A stretch of DNA of 64,000 nucleotides from a virus. The notes below the pieces were generated by a model. It was not told the origin of the DNA, did not search any database, and saw only the letters and a list, made by a program, of their open reading frames with translations. This document shows, piece after piece, positions 28,819 to 44,405 of this stretch (its first letter is position 1; each line of letters starts with the position of its first letter). The position numbers and the translations under genes were made by a program. The DNA is taken from positions 4,010 through 68,009 of IMG/VR virus record IMGVR_UViG_3300048918_000175. One strand, written 5' to 3'.

Positions 28819-28891
28819 TGCCCTAGACAGGACTCGAACCTGTGCCTCCGGTTTCGGAAACCGGCACTCTGTCCAACTGAGCTACGAGGGC
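28819..28891 (-). tRNA. tRNA-Arg(CCG)
   Basis: Cloverleaf; anticodon arm CCGGT-TTCCGAA-ACCGG. Confidence 0.85.
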
Positions 28892-28896
28892 AATGA

Positions 28897-29327: not shown

Positions 29328-29338
29328 GTGATTCCTCC

Positions 29339-29569: not shown

Positions 29570-29585
29570 GTTTCACCTCATTCAG

Positions 29586-29659
<74 letters not shown>

Positions 29660-29826
29660 GTGTGGATGGGCAACGCCATGTCCGCTCCCACCCTGCTAAA
29701 TCCTTCCGGGTACTCGTAAAGGGGTCCAGGTTCTGCCCTCGCCCCGCCTCTGTCATCGTGGTATCTCACCATGTTTTAACGACTGACAAGAGGTTTTCCA
29801 CCGCTGCATGGGGACTTCTGTGCTAC

Positions 29827-30183
29827 TTATACCTTGAGCCCGAAGCGTTCCGGGGTGTTCTTGGGCTTTGGTGAGCGCATCTCATCGAACGTGCGACACC
29901 GAACCTGTTCAATCTGCTTCAGTGGGAGTCTGAGACCCGCAAACTTCAACTCCCACTCCCATCGTGTCTTACCTGACTCAAAATCAACCCAAGAGACGGC
30001 CTTCCGTTCGCGCACAATCGCGCCAATCTCATTGATGATGACCCACTCAGGATCAATCGCGGGGTTTCGAACCCAATCCTGTTTGGGCTTTCGCTTGAAG
30101 AACGTCTTGCGCCGTTTCCAAAGCCACCCGATCAGGTCAATTCCAAACGCGAGCACAAAGCCCCAAAACATTCCTTCGATCAT
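29827..30183 (-). CDS. Membrane-anchored hypothetical protein
   Basis: N-terminal TM helix. Confidence 0.55.
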   Translation of the reverse strand: MIEGMFWGFVLAFGIDLIGWLWKRRKTFFKRKPKQDWVRNPAIDPEWVIINEIGAIVRERKAVSWVDFESGKTRWEWELKFAGLRLPLKQIEQVRCRTFDEMRSPKPKNTPERFGLKV

Positions 30184-30368
30184 GGTATTGGTACCGTCTC
30201 AGCAAAATGTGGATCGACCGCGTGCAATGCGTTCTGTGCAGCGAGTTCCTCTTTCACGAGGTTTATCTCTCGCCGTGCTTCCTTCGTGGTCATCTTCGAT
30301 ACGTCAATCGCGAAGATGCGACCCCTCGGACGATTGTTGTAGTCCTGTGGTAGTTTATCCATTTCCAT
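30180..30368 (-). CDS. Mini-protein with a portal (gp20)-like segment
   Basis: RGRIFAIDVSKMTTKEA resembles T4-like portal RRIFYIDVGNMPxxKA. Confidence 0.45.
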   Translation of the reverse strand: MEMDKLPQDYNNRPRGRIFAIDVSKMTTKEARREINLVKEELAAQNALHAVDPHFAETVPIP

Positions 30369-30370
30369 AA

Positions 30371-30442
30371 TAGCGCATAGGGGAATCGAACCCCTCTCCC
30401 CCGGATGAGAACCAGGCGACCTAGCCGATAGTCGAATGCGCC
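30371..30442 (-). tRNA. tRNA-Glu(CTC)
   Basis: Anticodon loop TTCTCAT. Confidence 0.85.
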
Positions 30443-30697
30443 GTTCAGGGAGCCGTGTGAGTGTCCTGGCTTGACGATCCCACCCCGACCCCCTTGGTAC
30501 TACGAAACGAGCGGTGCGTTGAGTGCCATCATCTGGCGACCCGTCTGAATGTCGAGTGCCTCGACGTACTTCGGTCCCAACTCAGCCGCTGCCGCCGAGA
30601 GAATCGTGTGCTCCGCCGTCGGCAGAATCGCGCCCGTGCTACCCACAAAGACAAGCTTCGGTTCCATGATATAGCCTCCTTGAAGTTGACCTACAAA

Positions 30698-30805
30698 TGG
30701 AGAGGGGTGGAGTCGAACCACCGCCTGACTCTCGACTTGGTACCAGTCTACGGTCTTTGACACGGATTAAGATCCGCCGCTCTGTCCCACCTGAGCTACC
30801 TCCCC
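30698..30805 (-). ncRNA. tRNA-like RNA with a 6-nt anticodon loop and a ~39 nt variable insert
   Basis: Intact acceptor, D and T arms; GCGGA-TCTTAA-TCCGT. Confidence 0.65.
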
Positions 30806-30807
30806 AA

Positions 30808-30892
30808 TGCACCCAGCAGGATTCGAACCTGCACCCCACTGAAGGGACAGGGCTCTCGACCCTGCGTGTCTACCAGTTCCGACCATGAGTGC
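30808..30892 (-). tRNA. tRNA-Leu(GAG)
   Basis: CAGGG-TCGAGAG-CCCTG; long variable arm. Confidence 0.85.
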
Positions 30893-30893
30893 G

Positions 30894-31145
30894 TTACACT
30901 GCCTCAAGCTGCGAACAACCTTCAGCGAGCACCATCAGCTTGCCGTCTGCCATGCGTAGCCCGTACCAAACTACTTCGTACAACTTCCCTACATGAATCC
31001 TTACATCTTCAACGACACACTCCTCACCCGTGGGGTAGAAGTCGATTATCTCGCGTGTCGCGGGATCAATGTGTCGAATATTATACGTGAGCCTGACACG
31101 ATCACCCACCTTGAACTCTGGCGCAGCCTTCTCAATTACGGGCAT
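30894..31145 (-). CDS. SH3-like hypothetical protein
   Basis: FKVGDRVRL motif. Confidence 0.55.
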   Translation of the reverse strand: MPVIEKAAPEFKVGDRVRLTYNIRHIDPATREIIDFYPTGEECVVEDVRIHVGKLYEVVWYGLRMADGKLMVLAEGCSQLEAV

Positions 31146-31425
31146 GTGGGTATGTCGCGTACAGACAGGAATTGATCTTGAAGATTACATCCCAATCGAC
31201 TAGGTCGCGTGCGAACAACTCATCCCGCAGCGCAATCAGAGAGGTGACAATCGTGTCCGACTCACTTAGTTTCTTGGACGTGACTATCGTGTCCTTCGGC
31301 GTCGTGGCATCCATCTTCATCCTCCGGGGTGTCGTTGCACTCACAGCATGGATGCTCGGGCCAACATGAGCAGTGTCGTTTTCTGTCCTCGGTGCATTCG
31401 TTTCTCATGTCAGAAAGATAGCTCC

Positions 31426-32070
31426 TCAGACCGCAGACCTCAATCCCTCGGTTGTCCGAAAGTTCAGATCGAATTTCCGAATTGGGTAGTTTCCCCGGTG
31501 CGCGTCAAAGTACGCATCGAAATCTTCAATCGCCCCTTGCATGTTGTAGTGTCCATTCAGCCCAACGAGACCCCGATTCTCTGCAATAAACCGCTCCGAG
31601 GACGTCGTCCTGAACGCCCTAGGCTCCCGATCCGCATAGAGCAAGGCCAGCGTACACTTTGAGAACGATGACCATTCTAATGCGGTCCCAGGGACAGCTT
31701 TCATCGAATGCCAATGTGAGTCCGATTCTTTGAACCACTCGACAACGCGAGAAAATGCATTTGGGAATAAATCCCAGGATGCGCGCATCATCTTTGGCCC
31801 GATGCCGTTCCCACGATATGCAGGAAGGACATACACGCCTCGCGTGCGCAGAACGGTATCGGAGATATTGTAGACAGAGGTGTAACCCTTTGTCACGCCA
31901 TCTTCAACCCACGCACACGGGAAGCAGAGAATGTCCTTCGCCCACCGCTCGCGCGGATACTGCACGATGCCGAATGGGTTATTCCATATCGGAATCGTCT
32001 CGGGTTGTTTTGTGTGCCAGTGGTCTGCCATACCTTCGCAGAACTCGGACCAACGAATGACGTGGAGCAT
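31426..32070 (-). CDS. GNAT-family acetyltransferase
   Basis: VYVLPAYRGNGIG acetyl-CoA binding motif A. Confidence 0.7.
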   Translation of the reverse strand: MLHVIRWSEFCEGMADHWHTKQPETIPIWNNPFGIVQYPRERWAKDILCFPCAWVEDGVTKGYTSVYNISDTVLRTRGVYVLPAYRGNGIGPKMMRASWDLFPNAFSRVVEWFKESDSHWHSMKAVPGTALEWSSFSKCTLALLYADREPRAFRTTSSERFIAENRGLVGLNGHYNMQGAIEDFDAYFDAHRGNYPIRKFDLNFRTTEGLRSAV

Positions 32071-32085
32071 ATCTCACATGTTGAA

Positions 32086-32157
32086 TAGGTCCTGATGGAT
32101 TCGAACCAACATCTCCTGGGTCAAAGCCAGGCGTCCTAACCGTTGAACGAAAGACCT
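32086..32157 (-). tRNA. tRNA-Gln(TTG)
   Basis: CCTGG-CTTTGAC-CCAGG. Confidence 0.85.
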
Positions 32158-32161
32158 GCAG

Positions 32162-32234
32162 TGCTCCGTATCGGATTCGAACCGATATCGCTGCCTTACC
32201 AAAGCAGTATGTTGACCGTTGACACTAACGAAGC
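32162..32234 (-). tRNA. tRNA-Thr(GGT)
   Basis: CTGCT-TTGGTAA-GGCAG. Confidence 0.85.
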
Positions 32235-32237
32235 TAG

Positions 32238-32310
32238 TGCCCGCATTAGGATTCGAACCTAAATTCTGGAGTTAGAAGCTCCATGTGCTATCCAGTTGCA
32301 CTATGCAGGC
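32238..32310 (-). tRNA. tRNA-Arg(TCT)
   Basis: TGGAG-CTTCTAA-CTCCA. Confidence 0.85.
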
Positions 32311-32314
32311 GTAT

Positions 32315-32449
32315 TGGTGGACCAGTGTCAGGAGATCATCCTGACTTCGCCGCCTATGGCCCAAAGGCGTAGTAGAAAGGTCTAGAACCTTCTACTCTGG
32401 GCTTGAGAGCAGCATCATAGGCCGAAGCCTCCGCTGAGAGCAATCACCA
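32315..32449 (-). ncRNA. Candidate structured RNA ending in CACCA
   Basis: Stems TGGTG/CACCA, GCCTATG/CATAGGC, GCCCAGAG/CTTTGGGC, GTCAGGA/TCCTGAC. Confidence 0.5.
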
Positions 32450-32454
32450 GGCAT

Positions 32455-33276
32455 TTAATCCAACCAATCGTGCTTGTACGGACCGATATCATCGAACGCT
32501 TCCTCGTCGTACTTCCCGCGCCGCAGGAGATTGTTAATCTCAGAGCGATACTGCCGACGATTGTGCTTCACAGCCCACGTGCGGCCCTTCTTCTTGCCAG
32601 GCATCGGCCCGAACCACATCTCACGCTGCATCTCCCACTTCCGCTCACACTTGAAGCAGAGATAGGTCCGATCGTGATAGACCCACTTCGGCTTCGTCTC
32701 TTTCGTTTTCTGAAACTCCCAGAACGTGATGGGCTCAGGCACACGCGGAGGATTGAGCGTGCTCCAATCGAGCGATCCATTCTTGAGCTTCCAGCCCCCA
32801 ATGCGATACCGACGCCATGCGCGCTCGGCCTCGCCGTACTTCGCTTCATACTCCGCCCGAATTGCCTTCCACATCGCGTTATGTTCCTCGTCCTGTCGAA
32901 CGATATCCTTCGCGACGTGCTTGCACTGTGGGCAGAATGTGGCGTGCTTCTGCCGAGAGTAATACTTGTTACTGACGGGAGCCCAGGTCTTGAGATCCTT
33001 CCAGTAGTCCTTCTTGGTGCGGTCATTCGACCGCTTGATCGTGCCGTCGTAGGCAACGATCCACTTCTTCTTTCCGTGTGACACTTTGACGCTCCTGGTT
33101 TGGGTACCTAGATTGTCATAATGCCTCCAATGGTTTGTAGCGAGTGGATTCGGTGCTTGCCCAAAACATTCGTTCTGGATGCAATCTTCACATTCCGGAT
33201 ATTCGATTGAAGACCAGTCGTCAACGATCATATGACGCGAGGGAAGTCCGAGCAACTTCGACTCCGGAGTACTCAA
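32455..33276 (-). CDS. Basic Cys-containing hypothetical protein (start uncertain)
   Basis: Long ORF with CxxC motifs. Confidence 0.55.
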   Translation of the reverse strand: MSTPESKLLGLPSRHMIVDDWSSIEYPECEDCIQNECFGQAPNPLATNHWRHYDNLGTQTRSVKVSHGKKKWIVAYDGTIKRSNDRTKKDYWKDLKTWAPVSNKYYSRQKHATFCPQCKHVAKDIVRQDEEHNAMWKAIRAEYEAKYGEAERAWRRYRIGGWKLKNGSLDWSTLNPPRVPEPITFWEFQKTKETKPKWVYHDRTYLCFKCERKWEMQREMWFGPMPGKKKGRTWAVKHNRRQYRSEINNLLRRGKYDEEAFDDIGPYKHDWLD

Positions 33277-33469
33277 CGATGACCCACTGAGACCTCACAA
33301 CAGGTGTCTTGATGGAACTGTAGCGGGTATGTGGATGATTGTACGTCTCACCCAGCGATGGTCGGTTCTTATACATCTTTCCGTTCTTGGAGAGATTTTC
33401 CGGCGCGTTATGCTTCGACGGCTTGAAGAACATCCCAGACGGTAGGTGCAACAGTTTGTAGAATCTCAT
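33221..33469 (-). CDS. Hypothetical protein
   Basis: AAGGAG RBS; NLSKNGKMY motif. Confidence 0.6.
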   Translation of the reverse strand: MRFYKLLHLPSGMFFKPSKHNAPENLSKNGKMYKNRPSLGETYNHPHTRYSSIKTPVVRSQWVIVEYSGVEVARTSLASYDR

Positions 33470-33489
33470 ATCGTCTCCTTCTCAGTGAG

Positions 33490-33562
<73 letters not shown>

Positions 33563-33577
33563 ACATTCCTACTAAAG

Positions 33578-33661
33578 CGGAGAGCCTGGGATTCGAACCC
33601 AGATGTCCTTGCGGATGCCAGATTTCAAGTCTGGTGCAATAGCCAGTTCTGCCAACTCTCC
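33578..33661 (-). tRNA. tRNA-Ser(TGA)
   Basis: CCAGA-CTTGAAA-TCTGG; variable arm. Confidence 0.9.
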
Positions 33662-33663
33662 AA

Positions 33664-34038
33664 TTATTCTTCCACAGGTCTTGCTGTCACAATGGCGGAG
33701 ATCAATTTGAACTCAGACACCGTCTTGTCCTTCTCGACTGTCCCAATGCCTGAGACAGAATAGACAGCCGCCTCTGCCTTATCCATCATCATAAGTGCTC
33801 GCCCGCATGGGGTGTCGAGCACCCGCCCATCAAAATACCAATCACCGTCAATCGTCTCAATCGTGCCAACGCCAGCGACGTTCGCGAGAAGGACGCTTGT
33901 CGAGGGATTTGATCCCAACGTCAGAAAGACTTCCTTCCCCTTATAATCAGCGATTGCCTTCTCCATCACTGCCTTCGGATAAATGCGTCCGTTGACAGTG
34001 GGTGTATCGGCGCGAAGAAGTATGGCGTGTATTTGCAT
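33664..34038 (-). CDS. Truncated, degenerate prohead protease (gp21)-like protein
   Basis: NGRIYPKAV, LDTPCG and SVSGIG motifs; the GELGHP His position reads LTLGSNP. Confidence 0.6.
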   Translation of the reverse strand: MQIHAILLRADTPTVNGRIYPKAVMEKAIADYKGKEVFLTLGSNPSTSVLLANVAGVGTIETIDGDWYFDGRVLDTPCGRALMMMDKAEAAVYSVSGIGTVEKDKTVSEFKLISAIVTARPVEE

Positions 34039-34043
34039 GACTC

Positions 34044-34072
34044 AATATAACTCAACCCACATCCTTCATCAA
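34044..34072 (-). promoter_or_regulatory. Sigma70-type promoter internal to the tRNA array
   Basis: TTGATG-17-TATATT, with an ATG immediately downstream. Confidence 0.55.
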
Positions 34073-34090
34073 GACGTGGGTTGTCCAAAG

Positions 34091-34163
34091 TGCCCATGGA
34101 GGGATTCGAACCCCCATTACAGGTTTCGTAGACCTGTGTGCTATCCGATTCTACTACATGGGC
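34091..34163 (-). tRNA. tRNA-Arg(ACG)
   Basis: CAGGT-CTACGAA-ACCTG. Confidence 0.85.
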
Positions 34164-34167
34164 ATAA

Positions 34168-34253
34168 CGGAGAGCCTGGGATTCGAACCCAGAAATCCCT
34201 TTCAGGACGCTAGTTTTCGAGACTAGTGCAATAGCCAGTTCTGCCAACTCTCC
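34168..34253 (-). tRNA. tRNA-Ser(CGA)
   Basis: CTAGT-CTCGAAA-ACTAG. Confidence 0.9.
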
Positions 34254-34270
34254 AATTTTCGTACTACAAG

Positions 34271-34356
34271 CGGAGTGTGAGGGATTTGAACTCTCACGTC
34301 CTTTCGGACCCACCGTTTAGCAAACGGGTGCGACACACCATCTTCGCCGACACTCC
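34271..34356 (-). tRNA. tRNA-Ser(GCT)
   Basis: Loop TTGCTAA; long variable arm. Confidence 0.85.
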
Positions 34357-34456
34357 AGGGGCGGCTTCCGATCACGACGTTTCCCATACCCTGCGGCCGC
34401 AAGGCATGCGTTCGTGTGTGGCGCTTGTGGACCACCTTAATCAACCGGACACCGAG

Positions 34457-34528
34457 ATCCCCGAATCGGCTTCGAACCGACGACTCACCCTTACGAGGGG
34501 CGTATTTTACCAGCTAAACTATCAGGGA
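34457..34528 (-). tRNA. tRNA-Thr(CGT)
   Basis: CGCCC-CTCGTAA-GGGTG. Confidence 0.8.
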
Positions 34529-34539
34529 ACAGCAACAAG

Positions 34540-34611
34540 CGGGTCGTACGGGAATCGAACCCGTCTCTCTCCCGTGACAGGGGAGTATTCTAGCCGATAA
34601 ACTAATGACCC
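34540..34611 (-). tRNA. tRNA-Asp(GTC)
   Basis: CTCCC-CTGTCAC-GGGAG. Confidence 0.9.
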
Positions 34612-34647
34612 AAGTTAACCTACTTTCCAAATCGTACTAACTTACTA

Positions 34648-34719
34648 TGGGAACCGTGGGGATCGAACCCACCCCTTCAGGATTTCACCCTGACGTACGA
34701 CCAACTATACGAAGTCCCC
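34648..34719 (-). tRNA. tRNA-Phe(GAA)
   Basis: TCAGG-GTGAAAT-CCTGA (unusual G32). Confidence 0.75.
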
Positions 34720-34726
34720 GAACCTA

Positions 34727-35710
34727 CTACACACCAATCTGCTTGCGTTTCGCCTTCGACACCTTGAGCAGCGCGCCACGCAAGTTCCGTTCCTTCACGA
34801 TGACGATACGAATGCCGCGCCAGAACCCAGACTTCTCTGAGCCACGTCCTGCATCGTTCCGCATCTGCACCCAGACGTTTTCACCCACTCCCTCAAAATC
34901 TTCAACCGACCGATAGAGCTTCATGCAATTGACTGTCACCAGTCCCTTGTTCGCATTGAGCGCAAATTCATGCGGCTGCATTTTCCCCTTCACGATGCAA
35001 CCATTCGGGAGAATGTCTACACCGAATGCCGCTTCCTTGATTTCTGCATCCGTTGCTTCAACGGCAATGGGTGGATCAATCTTGTACCCGCCCACTCCAA
35101 TGTCGATCAACTGAGTGAGTCCACCCTTCAGTGCCCACTCAATAACCTTTTTCGCTTTGTCGCGCCAGATCGAATCAGCCGATGCAAGCTGGTCGCCGTT
35201 CTCACCCTTCAGCGAGATGGGAACATCACCCTTCGCGGTCGTGAGAATGAAGTCAGCCTTCTTGCCCGTACCCACACCGTCCTTCTTGGTGCCCTTCTTG
35301 CCTGTTTCCTTGATCTTCGTGACACCGCGCACCATGAACTTGCGGGTGCCATCTGTGAACAGAATGTCAAGTACCGGCATCAGCTTCAGCAGGTCCTTGA
35401 TGTGATGATGGAAGCGATCTTCTGCCATCCCACCCTTGTTCTGGGCAGTGAACTTCACGAACCGCGAGCGATCCTTGACCGTGATCGTGAACCCCTCGGC
35501 CGTGATGACGTTCTTGACCAGCTTGGGCTTCGATCCCGCGAGTGCCTCGAAAATCTTCAGTGCAACCTTGTCAACAAGCGTTGGTGCAACGAGGACGTCG
35601 AATGCCTTCGGCCCGACAGGCTTCTGTTCCTTCTGTCCTAGCTTTGCAACCAATGCTTGCAGATGATGGAGCGACAACTTTGCCATGTGCAGTCCTTGAG
35701 GGGTCTGCAC
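34727..35710 (-). CDS. PD-(D/E)xK-like nuclease-fold protein (start probably MAKLS)
   Basis: AE...KKADF...ISLK motif; CTAAATA late box at 35711-35717. Confidence 0.6.
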   Translation of the reverse strand: MQTPQGLHMAKLSLHHLQALVAKLGQKEQKPVGPKAFDVLVAPTLVDKVALKIFEALAGSKPKLVKNVITAEGFTITVKDRSRFVKFTAQNKGGMAEDRFHHHIKDLLKLMPVLDILFTDGTRKFMVRGVTKIKETGKKGTKKDGVGTGKKADFILTTAKGDVPISLKGENGDQLASADSIWRDKAKKVIEWALKGGLTQLIDIGVGGYKIDPPIAVEATDAEIKEAAFGVDILPNGCIVKGKMQPHEFALNANKGLVTVNCMKLYRSVEDFEGVGENVWVQMRNDAGRGSEKSGFWRGIRIVIVKERNLRGALLKVSKAKRKQIGV

Positions 35711-35719
35711 TATTTAGAG

Positions 35720-35792
35720 TGCGGGTGACGAGGGTCGAACTCGTATCTCTTGGGTGGAAGCCAAGCATGTTAGCCATTGTCACCACACCCGC
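35720..35792 (-). tRNA. tRNA-Gly(TCC)
   Basis: CTTGG-CTTCCAC-CCAAG. Confidence 0.9.
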
Positions 35793-35806
35793 ATTGTACT
35801 ACAGAG

Positions 35807-35879
35807 TCAGGTGGTCGGGGATTGAACCCGAGCCCCCGGCTTCACAGACCGGTACTCTACCAATTGAGCTACGCACCTG
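35807..35879 (-). tRNA. tRNA-His(GTG), atypical acceptor stem
   Basis: CCGGT-CTGTGAA-GCCGG; bulged acceptor stem. Confidence 0.7.
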
Positions 35880-35883
35880 TTAA

Positions 35884-35999
35884 TGGTTGCTGAAAAAGCT
35901 GACGAAAGCCCCGATCAAGCTAGACAATTACGGCCCTACCGTCGCCCGACCATGCAGGCTAGTTCCGTACCTTTCCTCATGTCGTTGTGACAGCAACCA
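35884..35999 (-). ncRNA. Candidate structured RNA closed by a 9 bp stem ending ACCA
   Basis: TGGTTGCTG/CAGCAACCA, GAC..GAAAG/CTTTCGTC. Confidence 0.5.
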
Positions 36000-36001
36000 A
36001 G

Positions 36002-36074
36002 CTGGGACAGAAGGAGTCGAACCTTCATCTTCCTGATTAACAGTCAGGAGACTTGCCAATTAGCCCACATCCCA
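36002..36074 (-). tRNA. tRNA-Asn(GTT), U1-A72 type
   Basis: CCTGA-CTGTTAA-TCAGG. Confidence 0.85.
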
Positions 36075-36081
36075 ATACAAA

Positions 36082-36279
36082 CTACGCGTCCCGCGACCGC
36101 AAGTTCCAATCGTAGACGTTCTCTTCCACCGTGCCATCTTCGAGGCGAATGTCGTACTGACCAGGCATTCTGCCGCAGCAATCACACCCATAGTCAAACG
36201 CTTCGACAACACATCGGAGGATCGTTGCAGGAACATCGGGACAATCTTCGTACCAAACCTTCTCGTCATCGTCGAACAT
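36082..36279 (-). CDS. Small hypothetical protein
   Basis: GAGGAGG RBS; CDCC motif. Confidence 0.55.
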   Translation of the reverse strand: MFDDDEKVWYEDCPDVPATILRCVVEAFDYGCDCCGRMPGQYDIRLEDGTVEENVYDWNLRSRDA

Positions 36280-36297
36280 AAGCCCTCCTCAAGTTGA

Positions 36298-36369
36298 TGC
36301 TCTGCCTCGGCTTCGAACCGAGCCCTAAAGGGTAAAAGCCAATTGTGCCTCCAACAACACTTGCAGAGC
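36298..36369 (-). tRNA. tRNA-Lys(TTT), weak anticodon stem
   Basis: Good acceptor and T arms; ATTGG-CTTTTAC-CCTTT has two U-U mismatches. Confidence 0.65.
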
Positions 36370-36374
36370 GTAAG

Positions 36375-36448
36375 CCCCGGGTGAAGGATTCGAACCCTCA
36401 GCGCATGGATTTGGAGGCCAGCATGTTAGCCAGTTACACCAACCCGGG
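36375..36448 (-). tRNA. tRNA-Trp(CCA), weak anticodon stem
   Basis: CTGGC-CTCCAAA-TCCAT. Confidence 0.7.
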
Positions 36449-36455
36449 ATGAAGC

Positions 36456-36584
36456 ATTGTCGTGGCGAGTCTCCCATTTATCTCGCACCGGGCTGAAAGC
36501 CGCATAGCCCTGTGACGCCAGACACGGAATATTGACGGTACCGTGCCCCACACCAGACGTTCCGTCCAAACATCTCACGACAAT
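36456..36584 (-). ncRNA. Candidate multi-branched structured RNA
   Basis: Closing stem ATTGTCGTG/CACGACAAT; inner stems GGCACGG/CCGTGTC, GGGCT/AGCCC, GCGAG/CTCGC. Confidence 0.45.
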
Positions 36585-36588
36585 ACAG

Positions 36589-36671
36589 TGGGACCGGAGG
36601 GATTCGAACCCCCAATGCCCGAAGGCGCCGGATTTACAGTCCGGTGGTTTAACCAATTCACCCACGTTCCC
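36589..36671 (-). tRNA. tRNA-Tyr(GTA)
   Basis: CCGGA-CTGTAAA-TCCGG. Confidence 0.9.
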
Positions 36672-36744
36672 ATAGCTGGAATCATACCCTTCTTTTACCC
36701 TTATGTCTTCCGACGATCGGGAACCACCCAGGAATCATCCAGCA

Positions 36745-36818
36745 TAGTCATCAAGGGGTTCGAACCCTTAGCCTTCGGCATGTCGAGCCGATGCTCTATC
36801 CAGTTGAGCTAGACGACT
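36745..36818 (-). tRNA. tRNA-Val(GAC)
   Basis: TCGGC-TCGACAT-GCCGA (C33). Confidence 0.8.
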
Positions 36819-36830
36819 GCACAAACTACT

Positions 36831-36907
36831 TGGTAGGCGTAATGAGATTTGAACTCATATTCCCGGCTTATCAGGCCGATGTACTCACCAGGTTATACGA
36901 TACGCCA
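36831..36907 (-). tRNA. tRNA-Ile(GAT)
   Basis: Loop CTGATAA; encoded CCA. Confidence 0.85.
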
Positions 36908-36908
36908 G

Positions 36909-36983
36909 TGGCGGGTGAGGGATTCGAACCCACAACCTCCGGTTTATGAGACCGTTGCTCTATCCAGTTGGAGCTACCCCGCC
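36909..36983 (-). tRNA. tRNA-Met(CAT), elongator-like
   Basis: Loop CTCATAA. Confidence 0.85.
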
Positions 36984-37080
36984 ATACCACCCAGTTACCC
37001 ATATCGGATTCGGTCCTTCGACCGACGGGGCATGATTCAGAGTCATGCCTGAGTGCAGATCCGTTGTAGCGTCCTACAAG

Positions 37081-37155
37081 TGCTCCGAGTGGGATTCGAA
37101 CCCACACCTTACCGATTAAGAGTCGGATGTACTAACCGTTGAATACTACCGGAGC
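37081..37155 (-). tRNA. tRNA-Lys(CTT)
   Basis: Loop CTCTTAA. Confidence 0.85.
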
Positions 37156-37166
37156 ATGAACTACAG

Positions 37167-37238
37167 AGAACCGGGTGGGGATCGAACCCACGACCACCTC
37201 ATTAACAGTGAGGCGCTCTACCACTGAGCTACCGATCC
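37167..37238 (-). tRNA. tRNA-Asn(GTT), G1-C72 type
   Basis: CCTCA-CTGTTAA-TGAGG. Confidence 0.85.
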
Positions 37239-37397
37239 AAAAACGACATTCTGTCAAAGCTCTATCCCGAGACGTTCGCGCGCCTCGCTTCCCCACCGCG
37301 AAATGAAGTGGCCTATGTCTTAACGGTGTCGCCCTCCTCTCGGGCTCTCACACCGCCAGTGTCTAATTTCGGCCATGAACAGTTACAGAATGTACAG

Positions 37398-37470
37398 TGC
37401 GGGTACCGAGATTTGAACTCGGCCTCCATGCTTGGCAAGCATGTGTGCTAGCCGCTGACACTACACCCGC
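37398..37470 (-). tRNA. tRNA-Gly(GCC)
   Basis: CATGC-TTGCCAA-GCATG. Confidence 0.9.
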
Positions 37471-37481
37471 GTGAACAACAG

Positions 37482-37555
37482 TCGAGGTGGTGGGACTCGA
37501 ACCCACAGCCTTCCGGTTCCAAACCGGAGAGTCTGACCAATTGACGTACACCTCG
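37482..37555 (-). tRNA. tRNA-Pro(TGG)
   Basis: TCCGG-TTTGGAA-CCGGA. Confidence 0.9.
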
Positions 37556-37739
37556 TTATGAACTACAGCTTCGTGAACACCCAACTCATAGGTTCACGCA
37601 CCATCTTGTAACCTTCTGCGGCGAGTGCCGCTTCGATCTTCTTCTTGCCCTCAGCGTCGGCTTCAATCATCTGCCAGGTGATGTGATTGAACCAGGCATT
37701 GAGAGGCATGAGACCACGTTCTAGGACTTCCATATAGAG

Positions 37740-37811
37740 TTGCCGCAAAAGGATTCGAACCTATATCTCCCGGGTCAGAGCCGGGGATACTAACCATTGT
37801 ACTATACGGCA
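37740..37811 (-). tRNA. tRNA-Gln(CTG)
   Basis: CCCGG-CTCTGAC-CCGGG. Confidence 0.85.
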
Positions 37812-37816
37812 ATAAG

Positions 37817-37887
37817 ATTACCGGATGGGATTCGAACCCATGATCGCGGCTTTGCAGGCCGCTGCCTTCCCACTTGGCTACCGATAA
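37817..37887 (-). tRNA. tRNA-Cys(GCA)
   Basis: GCGGC-CTGCAAA-GCCGC; U73. Confidence 0.85.
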
Positions 37888-37908
37888 TTTTCGCGGGCCT
37901 AAGCCCAG

Positions 37909-37991
37909 TGCGTCTGGAGGGATTCGAACCCCCACCCCCGAAGGGACCCGGTTCTAAGCCGGGCGCGTCTACCAATTCCAGCCACAAACGC
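37909..37991 (-). tRNA. tRNA-Leu(TAG)
   Basis: CCCGG-CTTAGAA-CCGGG. Confidence 0.9.
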
Positions 37992-38052
37992 ATAACTACG
38001 GGAAGACTTTGTTCTCAGCGACACGCCGAGTTACTTCCCTTTTCTCTTTCAG

Positions 38053-38124
38053 TGGAGGATAGCGGGTTCGAACCGCTGACTCATGCGTGCAAGGCAAGTG
38101 TGTTCCCAGCTATACCAATCCCCC
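38053..38124 (-). tRNA. tRNA-Ala(TGC)
   Basis: Loop CTTGCAC; G3-U70. Confidence 0.9.
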
Positions 38125-38193
38125 ATTGTGCTCTATTCTTTTCGCCGTGACGAGCAGTCACCGCCTCTCTTTATCCCTGATGGCTTGGGTCAG

Positions 38194-38265
38194 TAGCGCG
38201 TACGGGAATCGAACCCGTCTTCCCTGGGTGAAAACCAGGCGTCCTAGCCGCTGAACGAACACGCC
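38194..38265 (-). tRNA. tRNA-Glu(TTC)
   Basis: CCTGG-TTTTCAC-CCAGG. Confidence 0.9.
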
Positions 38266-38270
38266 ATACG

Positions 38271-38465
38271 TCAGAATCCGTTCTTCAACGCATTCTTCAT
38301 TCGATCAACCATCACGTCATCCTCGACGTTGAACAAATCAGCACCCTGGCCGTAGGGTCGATCACCGAGATTGTGCACCAACTGGCCAAGGCGCAGATCA
38401 GGATAAGCAGACCAGAGGGCCTTCAGCAGGTCAGATGCTTCCTTGATCCTCTTTGGATCTCTCAT
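38271..38465 (-). CDS. Small hypothetical protein
   Basis: MRDPKRI...W...PDLRLGQL...FNVEDD, a common phage family; GAGG RBS. Confidence 0.65.
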   Translation of the reverse strand: MRDPKRIKEASDLLKALWSAYPDLRLGQLVHNLGDRPYGQGADLFNVEDDVMVDRMKNALKNGF

Positions 38466-38483
38466 GTAGTTACCTCTCAGTAG

Positions 38484-38556
38484 TGGTAGCGGAGGGCCGA
38501 ATCGCACGGTACTTTCTGGTTTATGAGACCAGCGTGACACAGTTCACTTCCCCACG
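38484..38556 (-). tRNA. tRNA-Met(CAT), initiator-like and degenerate
   Basis: C1xU72 mismatch, loop CTCATAA, encoded CCA; short D arm and TGCGATT T-loop. Confidence 0.6.
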
Positions 38557-38569
38557 ATAGTTCCAACAG

Positions 38570-38651
38570 TGCTCAGAGAGGGAGTCGAACCCTCACCCCT
38601 TTCGGGACCGGATTTTGAGTCCGGCGCGTCTACCAGTTTCACCACCCGAGC
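38570..38651 (-). tRNA. tRNA-Leu(CAA)
   Basis: CCGGA-CTCAAAA-TCCGG. Confidence 0.9.
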
Positions 38652-38657
38652 ATGAAG

Positions 38658-38730
38658 TAGGCAATGTCGGATTCGAACCGACACCTGACGAGATGTAAAC
38701 TCGTTGCTCTTTCCGTTAAGCTAATCGCCT
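38658..38730 (-). tRNA. tRNA-Val(TAC), first tRNA of the array
   Basis: ACGAG-TTTACAT-CTCGT. Confidence 0.85.
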
Positions 38731-38737
38731 GTAACGC

Positions 38738-38770
38738 AAAATCCCGTACCGCTTTGTGAGCGATACGGGA
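38738..38770 (-). terminator. Attenuator terminator upstream of the tRNA array
   Basis: 12 bp stem TCCCGTATCGCT/AGCGGTACGGGA followed by TTTTGCGTT. Confidence 0.75.
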
Positions 38771-38793
38771 CGAAAGAAGAAATTCAGCGTGGG

Positions 38794-38964
38794 CTAAATT
38801 TCGATCTTGACTCCGTATCGTTCACGATTGACTGAACCGCCACCCAGACCCGCTTCATAATTCCAATCCTGTCGCTTGCACTGTCCACCACCGACCAGGC
38901 TTGTCACGGTGCTTTGCGGCAACGCGGGCTTGGAGCTAATTCGGTGTGAAGTAAAGCGTGACAT
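38794..38964 (-). CDS. Putative attenuator leader peptide containing all 20 amino acids
   Basis: MSRFTSHRISSKPALPQSTVTSLVGGGQCKRQDWNYEAGLGGGSVNRERYGVKIEI, lying between promoter and terminator. Confidence 0.65.
   Translation of the reverse strand: MSRFTSHRISSKPALPQSTVTSLVGGGQCKRQDWNYEAGLGGGSVNRERYGVKIEI
38813..38825 (-). promoter_or_regulatory. Antiterminator segment
   Basis: GTGAACGATACGG pairs 12/13 with CCGTATCGCTCAC (38756-38768), the terminator 5' arm plus loop. Confidence 0.7.
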
Positions 38965-39007
38965 AGAATGAATTGAGTTCTCTCGGTGACTTGTTGAACG
39001 TTCTATG

Positions 39008-39036
39008 AATATAACAGCCTTGAGCCTCATCTGCAA
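39008..39036 (-). promoter_or_regulatory. Sigma70-type promoter for the leader and tRNA array
   Basis: GGGC-TTGCAG-17-TATATT, same -35 context as the early cassettes. Confidence 0.65.
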
Positions 39037-39086
39037 GCCCTCGGTTGTCCGATCCGTCTAGCGCGTTCTGTTGTTTTCGATGTTTC

Positions 39087-39094
39087 TATTTATA
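39087..39094 (-). promoter_or_regulatory. T4-type late promoter
   Basis: Perfect TATAAATA. Confidence 0.55.
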
Positions 39095-39704
39095 CAACCG
39101 AGGCTTCTGTAACCTTCGATTTGGACGACTTTGCTCGCTTCCCCACCTGCTTGCTCATGGGAATCTCCTTCGCGACGACTTCGGGAAGTTCCAGAGACTC
39201 GCTGGGTTCGACAGCAGGCGCCGTGGGCTCGTCTACAACGGGATCAAGCTGACCGACGTCAATAGTGATCGGAATCCCGATCCTCGGGAGCGCAGTGACG
39301 AGCGCAGGGTACAGTCCAAGGAGCGTCTGGTCCTTGATGTGATTCAGGATGATTGCTTCTTCCCAGTGCACACCTTCGAGGATGTTGACCCACGCATTCT
39401 CACGCTGGTACGCCGCGACTCGTTCCATCGGCTGGCCCTTGGCGAACGCCTTCACGCGCCGAAACTCAGCGCGGAGCGTCGTCTCACCCATTCCCGCCGG
39501 GATATCCTTCGTGAGCTTCACGTTGGGTGGAAGACCTTCGGGGATCGAACTGATACGGCACTCATTCTGGCCCGCAATCATCATATATCCACGGAACGAT
39601 GAATCGGTCTGGAGCAGGTGATCGGCGCGAGCCGCAATATCGTTCTCATCTACACCCTTGACAATCCAGTCAAGGGCCTCATTCAGTTGGCGAAACTTCT
39701 GCAT
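39090..39704 (-). CDS. Conserved T4-like hypothetical protein
   Basis: LPP...RENAWVNILEGVHWEEA...IKD family, usually found next to rnh. Confidence 0.7.
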   Translation of the reverse strand: MQKFRQLNEALDWIVKGVDENDIAARADHLLQTDSSFRGYMMIAGQNECRISSIPEGLPPNVKLTKDIPAGMGETTLRAEFRRVKAFAKGQPMERVAAYQRENAWVNILEGVHWEEAIILNHIKDQTLLGLYPALVTALPRIGIPITIDVGQLDPVVDEPTAPAVEPSESLELPEVVAKEIPMSKQVGKRAKSSKSKVTEASVV

Positions 39705-39706
39705 GG

Positions 39707-40612
39707 TTAAAACTCCTGTATCAATTCGATCATGTTCCTCATCCGATTCTTGATGAAGAAGTTGAGCAGCATGCCCTTCCCTCTGACGCCCTTCTGCGCC
39801 TCGTAACTATGTATGATCGCCTCAGCGAGCGCGGGAGGCACATTGCGCAGATCAACCATCGCACGGTTCCGATCAAAGTTCCGTCGCAGGTTTACGTCGG
39901 CTCCGTAGATTTGATCCCACGGCAGACGCTTCCATTCCTCGACCAGTTCGGTCTTGAGCGGCTTCTGTCGCGCACCCGTGACGAACGTATCATCAGCCGA
40001 GAGGACATTCGGGACACCATCGCCCTTGTCCCCGCGGAGAATGTGCTCGGTCAAGATCCAGTCAGCAGGTTCCGTTGCCTTCACCCACATCTTCTGGATC
40101 GGTGAGTATTGCGAGACGTTCTCGTGCCGATGGAGTTGGAGGAAGTCGTGGTCGCCCGACAGAATCAAGACCTTTTCGGGCTCGGGATCATCGAATAGTG
40201 TCCCGGTTGGCACCTTGAGGTCATGACTCTGCGAGTGCAGCACCAACGTGGCAATCACGTCGTCCGCTTCCGCCCCTTCGATTTCCACGACAGGATACGG
40301 AAAGAACTCTGCCAACTCGGCCTTCACCTGATTGAGTGCAGCGAACAGGTCTTCCCAGTTGAGACCCGATTCCTCGCGCGCCTTCTTGCGCCCCGCCTTG
40401 TAGTGGACGAACTCTTGCTTGCGCCAGTACTTCCGTCCATCGCAACAGATGACGAGGGAGCCGTACTTGGATCCATACTTCATTTTGTACGAACGAATCG
40501 TGTTCAAGATCATGTGACGGATAAGCCCCACGTCCACATGAATATCCTTTCGCCCACGGACTTCTGCCATCAGTGTCGAGATGGCCGTCTGTGAGTAGTC
40601 AATCAGAATCAT
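39707..40612 (-). CDS. rnh: T4-type RNase H (5'-3' exonuclease)
   Basis: ILIDYSQ, YWRK, YKAGR, EADD, SGDHDFLQL and GDKGDGVPN motifs; start re-set to MILID. Confidence 0.9.
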   Translation of the reverse strand: MILIDYSQTAISTLMAEVRGRKDIHVDVGLIRHMILNTIRSYKMKYGSKYGSLVICCDGRKYWRKQEFVHYKAGRKKAREESGLNWEDLFAALNQVKAELAEFFPYPVVEIEGAEADDVIATLVLHSQSHDLKVPTGTLFDDPEPEKVLILSGDHDFLQLHRHENVSQYSPIQKMWVKATEPADWILTEHILRGDKGDGVPNVLSADDTFVTGARQKPLKTELVEEWKRLPWDQIYGADVNLRRNFDRNRAMVDLRNVPPALAEAIIHSYEAQKGVRGKGMLLNFFIKNRMRNMIELIQEF

Positions 40613-40675
40613 CCTTGCTCGCTTGTGCGTGTCTATACAATTTAGCACACCACGCGCATTACTTCAAGGAGCAGG

Positions 40676-43735: not shown

Positions 43736-43805
43736 TTTGTGCTCCTCACGTTTGTTTTCGTGTGATGAACGATACTTAGTTAGACCTCAGACCGCAAGCC
43801 TTGGG

Positions 43806-44405
43806 TCATCCGAAAGAGATTTTCGACTTCCATTCCTCGAAACGAGTGTTGATTCGCATTTCAGTTTCGACCATGTAATGAGGATCAGTGGCGCGAGTGA
43901 TGTAAGGAATTGTGTCGGGGCCGCTTGAGCACTCCATGTCCGAACCACGAGTCGAGTAGTCCATAACAGTCGAATGGGTTCTAGTATGGCAGACCAATGC
44001 AATTGGACAATCCGTTCCTATTAACTGTGCGTCCATTGCGATTTCGCGTGACCGCTTGAACGTTCTACCCCATGAGATGAAGTCATCCCACCAGATCCAG
44101 CGCTTCGCGGGACCGTCGGGGGCAACACCTGATACAATGCCGCTCGATCCGAGACTAGTCTCTCCCGGTTTGCGAACAGCAAAAAGTGGGATGCCCGTGA
44201 GAAACGAAATCGCACCTGCTGTCGGCACGCCTGAATGCCCGCATGCCAGAATCGCATCGGCGTCTAGCTCCTGCACCGCGGCCGCACCCCAGAGGACAAT
44301 TTCCTGCATTGTCTTGATTGTGAAGGCGTCCCGAGTGTGCGACGGACACTTGTCTACAGCATGATCGGTATTCTTGCGGGTGTGCAGCTTCAGAATATGC
44401 GTCAC
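43806..44405 (-). CDS. Type I phosphoribosyltransferase-like protein
   Basis: SG..A, VRK and the PRPP-binding-like WWDDFISWGRT. Confidence 0.65.
   Translation of the reverse strand: MTHILKLHTRKNTDHAVDKCPSHTRDAFTIKTMQEIVLWGAAAVQELDADAILACGHSGVPTAGAISFLTGIPLFAVRKPGETSLGSSGIVSGVAPDGPAKRWIWWDDFISWGRTFKRSREIAMDAQLIGTDCPIALVCHTRTHSTVMDYSTRGSDMECSSGPDTIPYITRATDPHYMVETEMRINTRFEEWKSKISFG

What the first reader, a model, noticed from the sequence alone, without database searches (positions are those of the whole stretch)
38731..39036. Pan-amino-acid attenuator controlling a phage tRNA array
Seen on the minus strand, in order: a promoter (TTGCAG-17-TATATT), a 56-codon ORF (38964-38794), a 12 bp hairpin plus U-tract (38770-38738), and the first tRNA 7 nt later. 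The ORF contains all 20 amino acids by codon 37, using 30 different codons. Codons 47-51 (GTGAACGATACGG) pair 12/13 with the terminator 5' arm and loop, forming a mutually exclusive antiterminator. The 27 tRNAs between this terminator and the next internal sigma70 promoter (34044) also cover all 20 amino acids. Established: trp/his/leu-type attenuators have this layout but use runs of one amino acid. Inference: stalling at any codon frees the antiterminator and switches on the replacement tRNA set, for example after starvation or cleavage by host anticodon nucleases such as PrrC, RloC, PARIS or VapC. This would make it a general sensor of tRNA-pool damage. I do not know of a described phage example but cannot search the literature.
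Basis: partly seen in the sequence, partly recalled or inferred. Interest (0 to 1): 0.93.

Follow-up and report, generated by a model that had tools for sequence, protein, structure and literature searches.

The report
All-amino-acid leader switch before phage tRNAs
Just ahead of its tRNA genes, an uncultured T4-like phage has a promoter, a tiny reading frame that uses all 20 amino acids, and an RNA stop signal that can fold two ways; a related phage keeps the layout, so it may switch tRNA production on when protein synthesis falters, though this is untested.

Summary
On the minus strand lie TTGCAG-17-TATATT, a 56-codon ORF (38964-38794) with all 20 amino acids by codon 37, a 13-bp hairpin with a U-run, and tRNA-Val 7 nt later.

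One metagenome relative reached through the neighbouring gene (L049) keeps the promoter block, ATG, stop, terminator, 7-nt spacing and the antiterminator pairing. Its ORF has all 20 amino acids by codon 35. A third peptide homologue (P0009) has them by codon 38.

The peptide sequence is not conserved (dN/dS about 0.8), but the frame is: both ORF indels are in frame. In both DNAs the nascent RNA folds into the antiterminator unless a ribosome sits at or beyond about codon 43 (window) or 39 (L049), so every amino acid lies inside the "sensing" stretch.

Against this reading:
- The ORF has no Shine-Dalgarno, although most genes of the phage do.
- There are only two independent lineages.
- I found no expression data.
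- The completeness statistic was partly chosen after the fact.

Best reading (about 0.45): a ribosome-dependent attenuator gating the tRNA array. I found none in print. Earlier unchecked notes of this scan report the same idea on other phage DNA.

The parts
39087..39094 (-). TATAAATA motif overlapping the stop codon of the upstream DUF6433 gene. It may be a T4-type late promoter, but that consensus is recalled and no call confirmed it.
   Evidence: It occurs 2 times in the window against 0.11 expected. L049 keeps it as ATAAATA.
39008..39053 (-). Promoter: a conserved upstream block ending in -35 TTGCAG (39036-39031), a 17-nt spacer, and -10 TATATT (39013-39008).
   Evidence: The 22-nt block 39032-39053 is identical in L049. 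The same GGCTTGC[AG]G..TGAGG type occurs at 43799 and 63521, upstream of protein genes.
38965..39001 (-). 5' untranslated leader. The transcription start is inferred about 7 nt after the -10. It holds conserved GTTCAACAA, CACCGAG and ACTCAATTCA blocks and no Shine-Dalgarno.
   Evidence: RNAalifold pairs GUUCA with UGAAC of the antiterminator strand.
38794..38964 (-). Leader ORF of 56 codons plus TAG, with all 20 amino acids in codons 1-37.
   Evidence: L049 conserves the ATG and the stop, and both ORF indels (15 and 6 nt) are in frame. dN/dS is about 0.83.
38864..38903 (-). Conserved hairpin inside the ORF (codons 21-34). This is the most conserved part of the 'peptide'. It may be a pause or folding element (inference).
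   Evidence: RNAalifold consensus columns 112-151. All pairs are kept in both sequences, and the bulged base varies.
38813..38825 (-). Antiterminator 5' strand (codons 47-51).
   Evidence: It pairs with 38769-38757 in the nascent-RNA MFE: 12 pairs in the window and 11-12 in L049. It beats shuffles in all but 28 of 2000 (window) and 6 of 2000 (L049).
38779..38802 (-). Hairpin holding the stop codon, nested between the two antiterminator strands.
   Evidence: L049 keeps it, with 2 pairs changed on both sides.
38731..38771 (-). Intrinsic-terminator-like hairpin (38771-38741) with the tail TTTGCGTTAC. It ends 7 nt before the tRNA.
   Evidence: dG -19.9; L049 -18.9. By direct reading of the alignment, one stem pair is C-G in the window and U-A in L049, and two more differ on one side (G-U wobble). 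The full-length MFE contains the terminator in both sequences.
34090..38730 (-). Gated block of 26 tRNA genes covering all 20 amino acids, with two ORFs inside (38271-38540 and 34727-35710). It ends at a terminator-like hairpin at 34083-34053.

Best explanation
This is a ribosome-dependent transcription attenuator at the head of the phage's tRNA operon.

Transcripts start at the TTGCAG-17-TATATT promoter and run into a terminator 7 nt before tRNA-Val. The terminator's 5' arm can pair instead with codons 47-51 of a 56-codon leader ORF.
- If no ribosome has reached about codon 43 when the 5' arm emerges, the antiterminator forms and RNA polymerase reads into the 26 tRNA genes. This happens when translation is slow, stalled or absent.
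- If a ribosome has run through to the end of the ORF, the antiterminator strand is masked or sterically blocked, the terminator forms, and the tRNA genes stay off.
- Codons 1-37 hold every amino acid, mostly once each, so a severe decoding failure at any of them would be sensed. The phage tRNAs would then restore decoding and shut the switch, giving feedback.

Shown: the anatomy, its conservation, the alternative folds, and the geometry.
Inferred: translation of the ORF, termination at the hairpin, coupling between the two, and the physiological trigger.
For: 1. Every element sits at the stated coordinates.

2. L049 was found only through the neighbouring DUF6433 gene (72% identity). It keeps the promoter block, ATG, TAG, stop-codon hairpin, terminator, the exact 7-nt distance to tRNA-Val(TAC), and the antiterminator pairing.

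3. The frame is kept while the peptide is not.
- There are 58 differences in 147 aligned nt.
- dN/dS is 0.535/0.647, and differences by codon position are 22/19/17. The adjacent real gene gives 24/21/64 and dN/dS 0.17.
- Indels inside the ORF are 15 and 6 nt. Outside it they are 2, 1, 3, 2 and 1 nt.
- Under random substitution the frame stays open in only 9-13% of trials.

4. Completeness is replicated. It is reached at codon 37 (window), 35 (L049) and 38 (P0009). With the columns shared with the window held fixed, L049 is complete in 4-11% of simulations, and complete within 37 codons in 0.2-1.3%.

5. Geometry. In the nascent-RNA model the antiterminator is intact with the A site at codons 1-42 (window) or 1-38 (L049). 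It is lost at codons 47-55 (window) or 42-48 (L049), with 1 of 11 pairs left at 49-50. Both ORFs are complete inside that stretch. For random residues at gene composition, the chance of completeness within 42 codons is 0.010, and within 38 codons 0.004.

6. The full-length RNA prefers the terminator by 8-10 kcal/mol, and the RNA before the 3' arm prefers the antiterminator, in both sequences.

7. No promoter-like site lies between the terminator and tRNA-Val. tRNA-Val and tRNA-Leu can therefore only be made by read-through.
Against: - Neither the window nor L049 has a Shine-Dalgarno within 15 nt of the ATG. In contrast, 50 of 71 long frames of this phage have a start with an SD-like tetramer.
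- With no ribosome the model gives read-through. A poorly translated leader would therefore leave the switch mostly on.
- In the window, a ribosome at the stop codon does not directly cover either antiterminator strand: 10-12 pairs are still formally possible. Blocking there rests on a steric argument.
- The U-run is short: four U, then GCG, then UU.
- Each amino acid is present only one to a few times, unlike the runs in the trp and his leaders, so only severe depletion would be sensed.
- Some leader codons are not read by tRNAs of the first block. ACT, ACC, ACA, TCA and CAA are read by tRNAs lying beyond the 34083 hairpin (my reading).
- 'By codon 37' was chosen after the fact. For the whole 56-codon ORF, completeness has a chance of about 0.07.
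- There are only two independent lineages. P0009 is close to L049 and came from a protein database, which biases it towards intact ORFs.
- One low-depth contig in run X1 shows a 1-nt deletion at 38902 inside the ORF. I could not retrieve it.
Confidence: 0.45

Rival explanations
1. A translation-independent leader. The conserved alternative RNA folds form a switch, or simply a partly efficient terminator. It would be set by RNA polymerase kinetics, an RNA-binding protein or another factor, and it also ends the upstream rnh-DUF6433 transcript. On this view the open frame is incidental.
For: - There is no Shine-Dalgarno.
- dN/dS is near 1, with no third-position excess.
- The best-conserved 'codons' coincide with RNA hairpins.
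- The 280-nt leader folds better than all 200 shuffles, z = -3.75.
- No terminator lies between the DUF6433 stop and this hairpin.
Against: - The ATG and the stop codon are aligned in L049, and both ORF indels are in frame while the five outside are not.
- The frame stays open in only 9-13% of neutral simulations.
- Amino-acid completeness is repeated in L049.
- No Rfam family, T-box included, matches 38731-39090 at E <= 1.
Confidence: 0.3
2. A separate small RNA gene. The promoter and terminator would make a stable, structured RNA of about 265 nt with a function of its own, and the tRNAs would be made by leak-through. Two comparisons apply: the small stable RNAs encoded in the T4 tRNA cluster (recalled), and attenuator-derived sRNAs such as rnTrpL.
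For: - The element has its own promoter and terminator, strong predicted structure and conserved hairpins.
- A terminated attenuator RNA acting in trans is reported for Sinorhizobium (PMC6614838, abstract seen in the listing).
Against: - It does not explain the conserved antiterminator complementarity.
- It does not explain the conserved 7-nt junction to tRNA-Val.
- It does not explain the preserved, amino-acid-complete frame.
- It is compatible with attenuation rather than opposed to it.
Confidence: 0.12
3. A gene for a functional 56-residue protein, with an ordinary terminator after it.
For: - The ORF is conserved in three sequences.
- One of them (P0009) was called as a gene by a public pipeline.
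Against: - dN/dS is about 0.83 overall, and dN exceeds dS in codons 1-19. The differences are spread evenly over the codon positions.
- There is no SD.
- The profile found no protein beyond P0009 among the 1.84 billion representatives (one per 50%-identity cluster of about 15 billion proteins) or among the 5.8 billion 90%-identity clusters.
Confidence: 0.03
4. Chance. The ORF and its completeness are accidents of a diverse sequence beside a real terminator.
For: - The completeness property was noticed after the fact.
- A 56-codon ORF is complete by chance about 7% of the time.
Against: For L049, the joint neutral expectation of two in-frame indels (1/9), an open frame (0.09-0.13) and completeness (0.05-0.11) is about 0.001. 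The duplex also beats almost all shuffles.
Confidence: 0.1

Closest known systems
Leader-peptide (ribosome-mediated) attenuators of amino-acid operons: trpL, hisL, thrL, ilvL, pheL (textbook knowledge, recalled; ribosome-mediated attenuation is described in the abstract of PMC6614838)
   Same: The order of parts is the same: promoter, short leader ORF, an antiterminator strand at the 3' end of the ORF, an intrinsic terminator, then the regulated genes. The peptide sequence is unimportant while the frame is kept.
   Different: The regulated genes are tRNAs, not biosynthetic enzymes. The ORF is longer (56 codons). It has no run of one amino acid and instead carries about one codon of each of the 20. 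No Shine-Dalgarno is seen. There is no clear 1:2 anti-antiterminator, only a 5-6 bp GUUCA:UGAAC pairing.
whiB7 uORF attenuator of mycobacteria (PMC10274678, abstract read)
   Same: Stalling in a uORF is thought to cause antitermination. Depriving the cell of many different amino acids, or inhibiting tRNAs and tRNA synthetases, activates it. The uORF's coding sequence sets what is sensed, and the uORF sequence varies between species.
   Different: That uORF is enriched for alanine and controls a transcription factor in a bacterium. This one is evenly stocked with all 20 amino acids and sits before tRNA genes in a phage. I tested no sequence relationship.
Cryptic 26-gene tRNA operon of Anabaena 7120, induced by translational stress (PMC8421152; PMC10272220 abstract)
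   Same: A long accessory tRNA array is kept off and switched on when translation is impaired.
   Different: Control there is by the RHH repressor TrcR acting at the promoter. The words 'attenuat', 'leader' and 'terminator' occur 0 times in the main text of PMC8421152. That array is cellular (on a megaplasmid), not in a phage.
T-box riboswitches (recalled)
   Same: A terminator/antiterminator leader that reads the state of tRNAs.
   Different: A T-box binds one specific uncharged tRNA directly and has no ORF. No T-box or other Rfam family matches this leader at E <= 1.
Earlier notes of this scan on other phage genomes: leader ORFs with all 20 amino acids, or matching their tRNA array, placed before phage tRNA blocks
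   Same: The same proposed logic, including cases in uncultured T4-like phages with 26 tRNAs.
   Different: The DNA is different: the by-sequence look-up found no look-alike. These are unchecked AI notes. I treat them as leads, not as support.

Membership tests
Leader-peptide transcription attenuator | A short ORF in the transcribed leader, between the promoter and the terminator | tested here: met
   The 56-codon ORF 38964-38794 lies downstream of TTGCAG-17-TATATT and upstream of hairpin 38771-38741.
Leader-peptide transcription attenuator | An intrinsic terminator immediately upstream of the regulated genes | tested here: met
   The 13-bp hairpin (dG -19.9) with its T-run ends 7 nt before tRNA-Val, and L049 keeps it. 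This is met by sequence only. Actual termination cannot be tested here.
Leader-peptide transcription attenuator | A mutually exclusive antiterminator whose formation depends on where the ribosome is in the ORF | tested here: met
   The alternative helix is the MFE of the nascent RNA in both sequences. It is lost when the modelled ribosome A site is at codons 47-55 (window) or 42-48 (L049), with 1 of 11 pairs left at 49-50. It beats shuffles in all but 28 of 2000 (window) and 6 of 2000 (L049).
Leader-peptide transcription attenuator | Regulatory codons: a cluster of codons for the amino acid(s) that are sensed | tested here: not met
   There is no run of one amino acid. All 20 are present, and 11 of them occur once in codons 1-37. 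This is the point at which it would be a new variant.
Leader-peptide transcription attenuator | The leader ORF is translated (ribosome-binding site, ribosome occupancy) | tested here: inconclusive
   There is no SD-like motif within 15 nt of the ATG in the window or L049, against 50 of 71 long frames that have one. Frame conservation argues for translation. No RNA or ribosome data were available.
Leader-peptide transcription attenuator | The frame and the regulatory content are conserved in relatives while the peptide sequence drifts | tested here: met
   dN/dS is about 0.83, the ORF indels are in frame, and completeness is reached at codons 37, 35 and 38 in the three homologues. Only two lineages are independent.
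T-box riboswitch | A match to the T-box covariance model (specifier loop and T-box bulge) | tested here: not met
   cmscan of 28000-40000 at E <= 1 lists no match to any family within 38731-39090 on either strand.
Repressor-controlled accessory tRNA operon (Anabaena trn/TrcR type) | An RHH repressor and its operator at the promoter | not tested
   I searched for no repressor. The conserved 16 nt upstream of the -35 (39037-39053) could be a protein-binding site.

The most novel reading that the evidence does not exclude
Phages carry a general gauge of decoding capacity. A leader ORF is kept by selection to contain every amino acid, upstream of a ribosome-sensitive terminator switch, so that failure to decode any codon class turns on a complete replacement tRNA set. 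Such failure could come from starvation, phage-induced decay of host tRNA, or tRNA-cleaving defence nucleases. The new tRNAs then turn the switch off again. This would be a tRNA-pool homeostat, and a new logic for attenuation: one codon of everything instead of many codons of one amino acid.
Probability: 0.3. Interest if true: 0.9.

Novelty: new variant of a known kind. Interest (0 to 1): 0.72.

Why it matters
The function of phage tRNA genes is under active debate. Proposals include codon compensation, replacing a decaying host tRNA pool, and escape from tRNA-cleaving defences (abstracts listed). How their expression is controlled is largely unknown.

A leader ORF that samples all 20 amino acids and gates the array would have three consequences:
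- Phage tRNA synthesis would be demand-driven.
- Leader-peptide attenuation would extend to RNA genes and to a 'sense everything' logic.
- It would provide a compact natural sensor of global decoding capacity that reporter fusions can test directly.

If the ORF turns out not to be translated, the element is still a conserved terminator/antiterminator switch at the head of a tRNA operon. That too is undescribed in the papers I could search.

Tried and rejected
**Search for more relatives**
I therefore could not fetch the contigs of the close DUF6433 homologues P0002, P0003, P0004, P0006 and P0007 (50-73% identity), or that of P0009.
- Scans of viral contigs:
  - The DUF6433 protein alone found none.
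  - Its alignment found 47 loci, all at 24-50% identity, and 0 of 47 have a tRNA.
  - The 22-nt promoter block found 0.
  - The 327-aa protein inside the array found 0.
  - The leader peptide alignment found 0.
  - The terminator-tRNA junction pattern found 0.
  - A looser junction pattern found 1 hit, which is chance because no tRNA is there.
- The metagenome-contig scan kept 80 loci. Only L049 is close, at 72% identity. I scanned 40 of the other 79 for tRNAs, and 1 of those 40 has a single tRNA.
- In genome contigs the peptide alignment found 0. A gapped DNA pattern found 88 hits, about what chance predicts by my own estimate, and I did not examine them further.
- Among the records behind five distant loci, one (G005) has at least 14 tRNAs, but the head of that array runs off the contig end and no minus-strand terminator is seen there.
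- Cultured distant relatives: DLP_6 and Cr30 have no tRNA array after rnh. I fetched Phabba and RSP15 but did not analyse them beyond the annotation tables; they show no obviously similar head.

**Peptide searches**
- A word-index search with the 56-aa peptide found no candidate, not even a called gene in the window's own record.
- Both profile searches found only P0009.

**Expression**
- No RNA holder was listed. One DNA run (X1) holds the stretch.
- Laying X1 gave one identical contig spanning 38609-39300, plus tRNA look-alikes.
- Slight extra depth over 38824-38931 comes from low-depth contigs that I could not read. One of them has a 1-nt deletion at 38902.

**Ideas rejected or uninformative**
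- A functional small protein is rejected on dN/dS.
- Matching leader codons to the phage anticodons is uninformative. By my own wobble count, the 35 tRNAs read about 53 of 61 sense codons.
- An upstream in-frame ATG at 39030 has a good SD (GAGGG) in the window, but L049 has no counterpart.
- Pfam and PHROGs gave no function for the ORFs inside the array.
- The T4 late-promoter consensus was not found in the two papers I searched for it, so it stays a recalled item.

**Literature**
- Searches returned no leader-peptide attenuator of phage tRNA genes.
Full report
**What the window is.** The window is 64,000 of the 68,009 bases of a linear virus record that CheckV estimates at 32% complete. GC content is about 55%. 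The long ORFs run mainly on the minus strand, which I read as the coding strand. Markers of a T4-like phage are present:
- a T4-type RNase H (39707-40648), with at most 45% identity to any cultured phage;
- a class II ribonucleotide reductase;
- a DUF6433 protein (39090-39704);
- 35 tRNA genes between 28817 and 38730, all on the minus strand.

**The observation.** On the minus strand these are:
- -35 TTGCAG at 39036-39031, a 17-nt spacer, and -10 TATATT at 39013-39008;
- an ATG at 38964 opening a 56-codon frame that stops at TAG 38796-38794;
- a 13-pair hairpin at 38771-38741, followed by TTTGCGTTAC;
- tRNA-Val(TAC) starting at 38730.

The ORF reaches all 20 amino acids at codon 37, using 30 different codons. 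ARAGORN finds 26 tRNAs from 38730 down to 34090, not 27, and they cover all 20 amino acids. The 27th may be a sub-threshold tRNA-like match at 38487-38556. A terminator-like hairpin at 34083-34053 closes this block.

**Is it more than chance?** 'All 20 amino acids in 37 codons' is rare:
- 32 of 46,475 stop-free six-frame windows;
- 2 of 11,890 windows in 71 putative genes, and 0 of 71 gene N-termini;
- 1 of 859 ATG-started stop-free windows, which is this ORF itself;
- 0.003 for random residues at gene composition.

The cut-off of 37 was chosen after the fact, however. For a whole 56-codon ORF the chance is about 0.07. The complementarity between codons 47-51 and the terminator 5' arm (-18.3 kcal/mol) is matched by 28 of 2000 dinucleotide shuffles of the upstream leader.

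**Relatives.**
- The DUF6433 protein has homologues at 50-73% identity in public metagenomes.
- Collection scans returned one close relative with DNA. This is L049, a 2,341-bp metagenome contig with 72% identity in DUF6433.
- The 47 viral-contig loci are at 24-50% identity, and none of the 47 has a tRNA.
- L049 was found through the neighbouring gene, so it is an unbiased test.
- L049 carries, in order: rnh, DUF6433, an extra 95-aa ORF, the homologous leader, then tRNA-Val(TAC), tRNA-Leu(CAA) and tRNA-Lys(CTT).
- A profile of the two leader peptides found one protein among the 1.84 billion cluster representatives: P0009, 51 aa, from a 1,206-bp contig.
- Further scans found nothing more.

**What is conserved.**
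- The 22 nt that end in the -35 are identical in L049.
- The ATG, the TAG and the T-run are aligned. The distance from the T-run to the tRNA is 7 nt in both.
- Within the ORF, 58 of 147 aligned nt differ.
- The two ORF indels are 15 and 6 nt. Those outside the ORF are 2, 1, 3, 2 and 1 nt.
- The peptide is not under protein-type selection. dN/dS is 0.535/0.647, and differences by codon position are 22/19/17. The adjacent DUF6433 gene gives 24/21/64 and dN/dS 0.17.
- With the same number of random substitutions the frame stays open in 9-13% of trials.
- The best-conserved 'codons' (21-34) coincide with a conserved RNA hairpin.

**Completeness in relatives.** The L049 ORF (49 codons) is complete at codon 35 and P0009 at codon 38. 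Between the window and L049, the residues F, H, Y, N, E and D sit at non-homologous positions.

With the columns identical to the window held fixed and the others redrawn, L049 is complete anywhere in the ORF in 4-11% of trials. It is complete within 37 codons in 0.2-1.3%. P0009 is too close to L049 to add weight: the matching figures are 1.0 and 0.38. It also came from a protein database, which favours intact frames.

For L049, the joint neutral expectation is about 0.001. This combines two in-frame indels (1/9, assumed), an open frame (0.09-0.13) and completeness (0.05-0.11).

**Folding and geometry.**
- In both sequences the full leader folds with the terminator formed.
- In both, the RNA present before the 3' arm is made folds into the antiterminator: 12 pairs in the window and 11-12 in L049. 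This helix encloses a small hairpin that holds the stop codon.
- With the 3' arm blocked, the fold is 8-10 kcal/mol less stable than the terminator fold.
- By direct reading of the alignment, the tenth terminator pair is C-G in the window and U-A in L049. The same C-to-U change turns the window's A.C mismatch in the antiterminator into an A-U pair.
- RNAalifold counts 3 pairs changed on both sides: 2 in the stop-codon hairpin and 1 in an ORF-internal hairpin.
- I masked a ribosome footprint (A site -15 to +14 nt) on the nascent RNA. The antiterminator stays intact for A-site codons 1-42 (window) and 1-38 (L049). It is lost at codons 47-55 (window) and 42-48 (L049), with 1 of 11 pairs left at 49-50.
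- Both ORFs become complete just inside that stretch. For random residues at gene composition, the chance of completeness is 0.010 within 42 codons and 0.004 within 38.
- With no ribosome, the model gives the antiterminator, which means read-through.

**Evidence against the ribosome model.**
- Neither sequence has a Shine-Dalgarno near the ATG. Yet 50 of 71 long frames of the phage have a start with one.
- In the window, a ribosome at the stop codon does not cover either strand, so blocking there is a steric inference.
- The U-run is short.
- Each amino acid appears only one to a few times.
- The Thr (ACT, ACC, ACA), Ser (TCA) and Gln (CAA) codons of the leader are read by phage tRNAs that lie beyond the hairpin at 34083 (my reading).
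- There are no expression data.
- One unreadable low-depth contig shows a 1-nt deletion inside the ORF.

**Promoter context.** The -35 region belongs to a family, GGCTTGC[AG]G..TGAGG, that is also found at 43799 and 63521 upstream of protein genes. This supports a real transcription start. TATAAATA at 39087-39094 occurs 2 times against 0.11 expected, and L049 keeps it as ATAAATA. It may be a T4-type late promoter feeding the same leader, but that consensus is recalled and I did not confirm it.

**Comparison with what is known.**
- No Rfam family matches the leader at E <= 1.
- The layout is that of leader-peptide attenuators. The defining run of one amino acid is absent, and translation is unproven.
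- The nearest published logic is the whiB7 uORF attenuator. It responds to deprivation of many amino acids and to inhibition of tRNAs and tRNA synthetases (PMC10274678, abstract).
- The nearest published biology is the silent 26-gene tRNA operon of Anabaena. It is induced by translational stress but controlled by the repressor TrcR (PMC8421152, passages; PMC10272220, abstract).
- Five full-text searches returned no leader-peptide attenuator of phage tRNA genes. I saw listings and abstracts only, and supplements were closed.
- This scan has noted the same idea before on other phage DNA, including all-20 leaders in uncultured T4-like and giant phages. No look-alike of this sequence was on record. 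Those notes are unchecked and I give them no evidential weight.

**Verdict.** A conserved promoter-ORF-antiterminator-terminator unit heads the tRNA operon. The one relative found independently of the ORF keeps both the frame and its amino-acid completeness, while the peptide itself drifts. I rate the readings as follows:
- ribosome-dependent attenuator: about 0.45;
- the stronger claim that completeness is selected as a pan-amino-acid sensor: about 0.3;
- translation-independent switch or leaky terminator: about 0.3.

It would be a new variant of a known kind. Interest is 0.72.

Noticed in passing
window 30695-30805 (-): A tRNA-like or tmRNA-like element lies between tRNA-Leu(GAG) and tRNA-Glu(CTC). 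The Rfam tmRNA model scores 26 bits (E 2.5e-7), below its gathering score of 47, and ARAGORN does not call it.
   Followed up: no
window 39008-39053, 43769-43820, 63491-63545 (-): A phage promoter family with a conserved block, CGG..A...A.GGCTTGC[AG]G..TGAGG, ahead of a TAnnnT -10. Two of the three copies precede protein genes.
   Followed up: partly
window 39087-39094 (-); L049 1489-1496: A TATAAATA/ATAAATA motif sits at the stop codon of the gene upstream of the leader in both phages. In L049 an extra 95-aa ORF (1209-1496) is inserted just before the motif, which suggests a cassette boundary.
   Followed up: partly
window 38487-38556 (-): A sub-threshold tRNA match (22.9 bits) overlaps the start of the 89-aa DUF1040-like ORF (38271-38540).
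   Followed up: no
window 34053-34083 (-): A 13-bp hairpin lies directly after tRNA-Arg(ACG). Its loop and tail contain TTGATG-17-TATATT, so it could be both the end of the first tRNA block and the next promoter.
   Followed up: no
window 38824-38931, run X1: Extra low-depth contigs in the same root-metagenome run align at 80% or more to the conserved core of the leader only. This hints at related phages in that sample. One of the contigs has a 1-nt deletion at 38902.
   Followed up: partly
window 39028-39030 (-): An in-frame ATG with a good SD (GAGGG 7 nt upstream) lies inside the promoter spacer. Transcripts from further upstream could translate a 78-aa extended form of the leader ORF. L049 has no counterpart.
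   Followed up: partly
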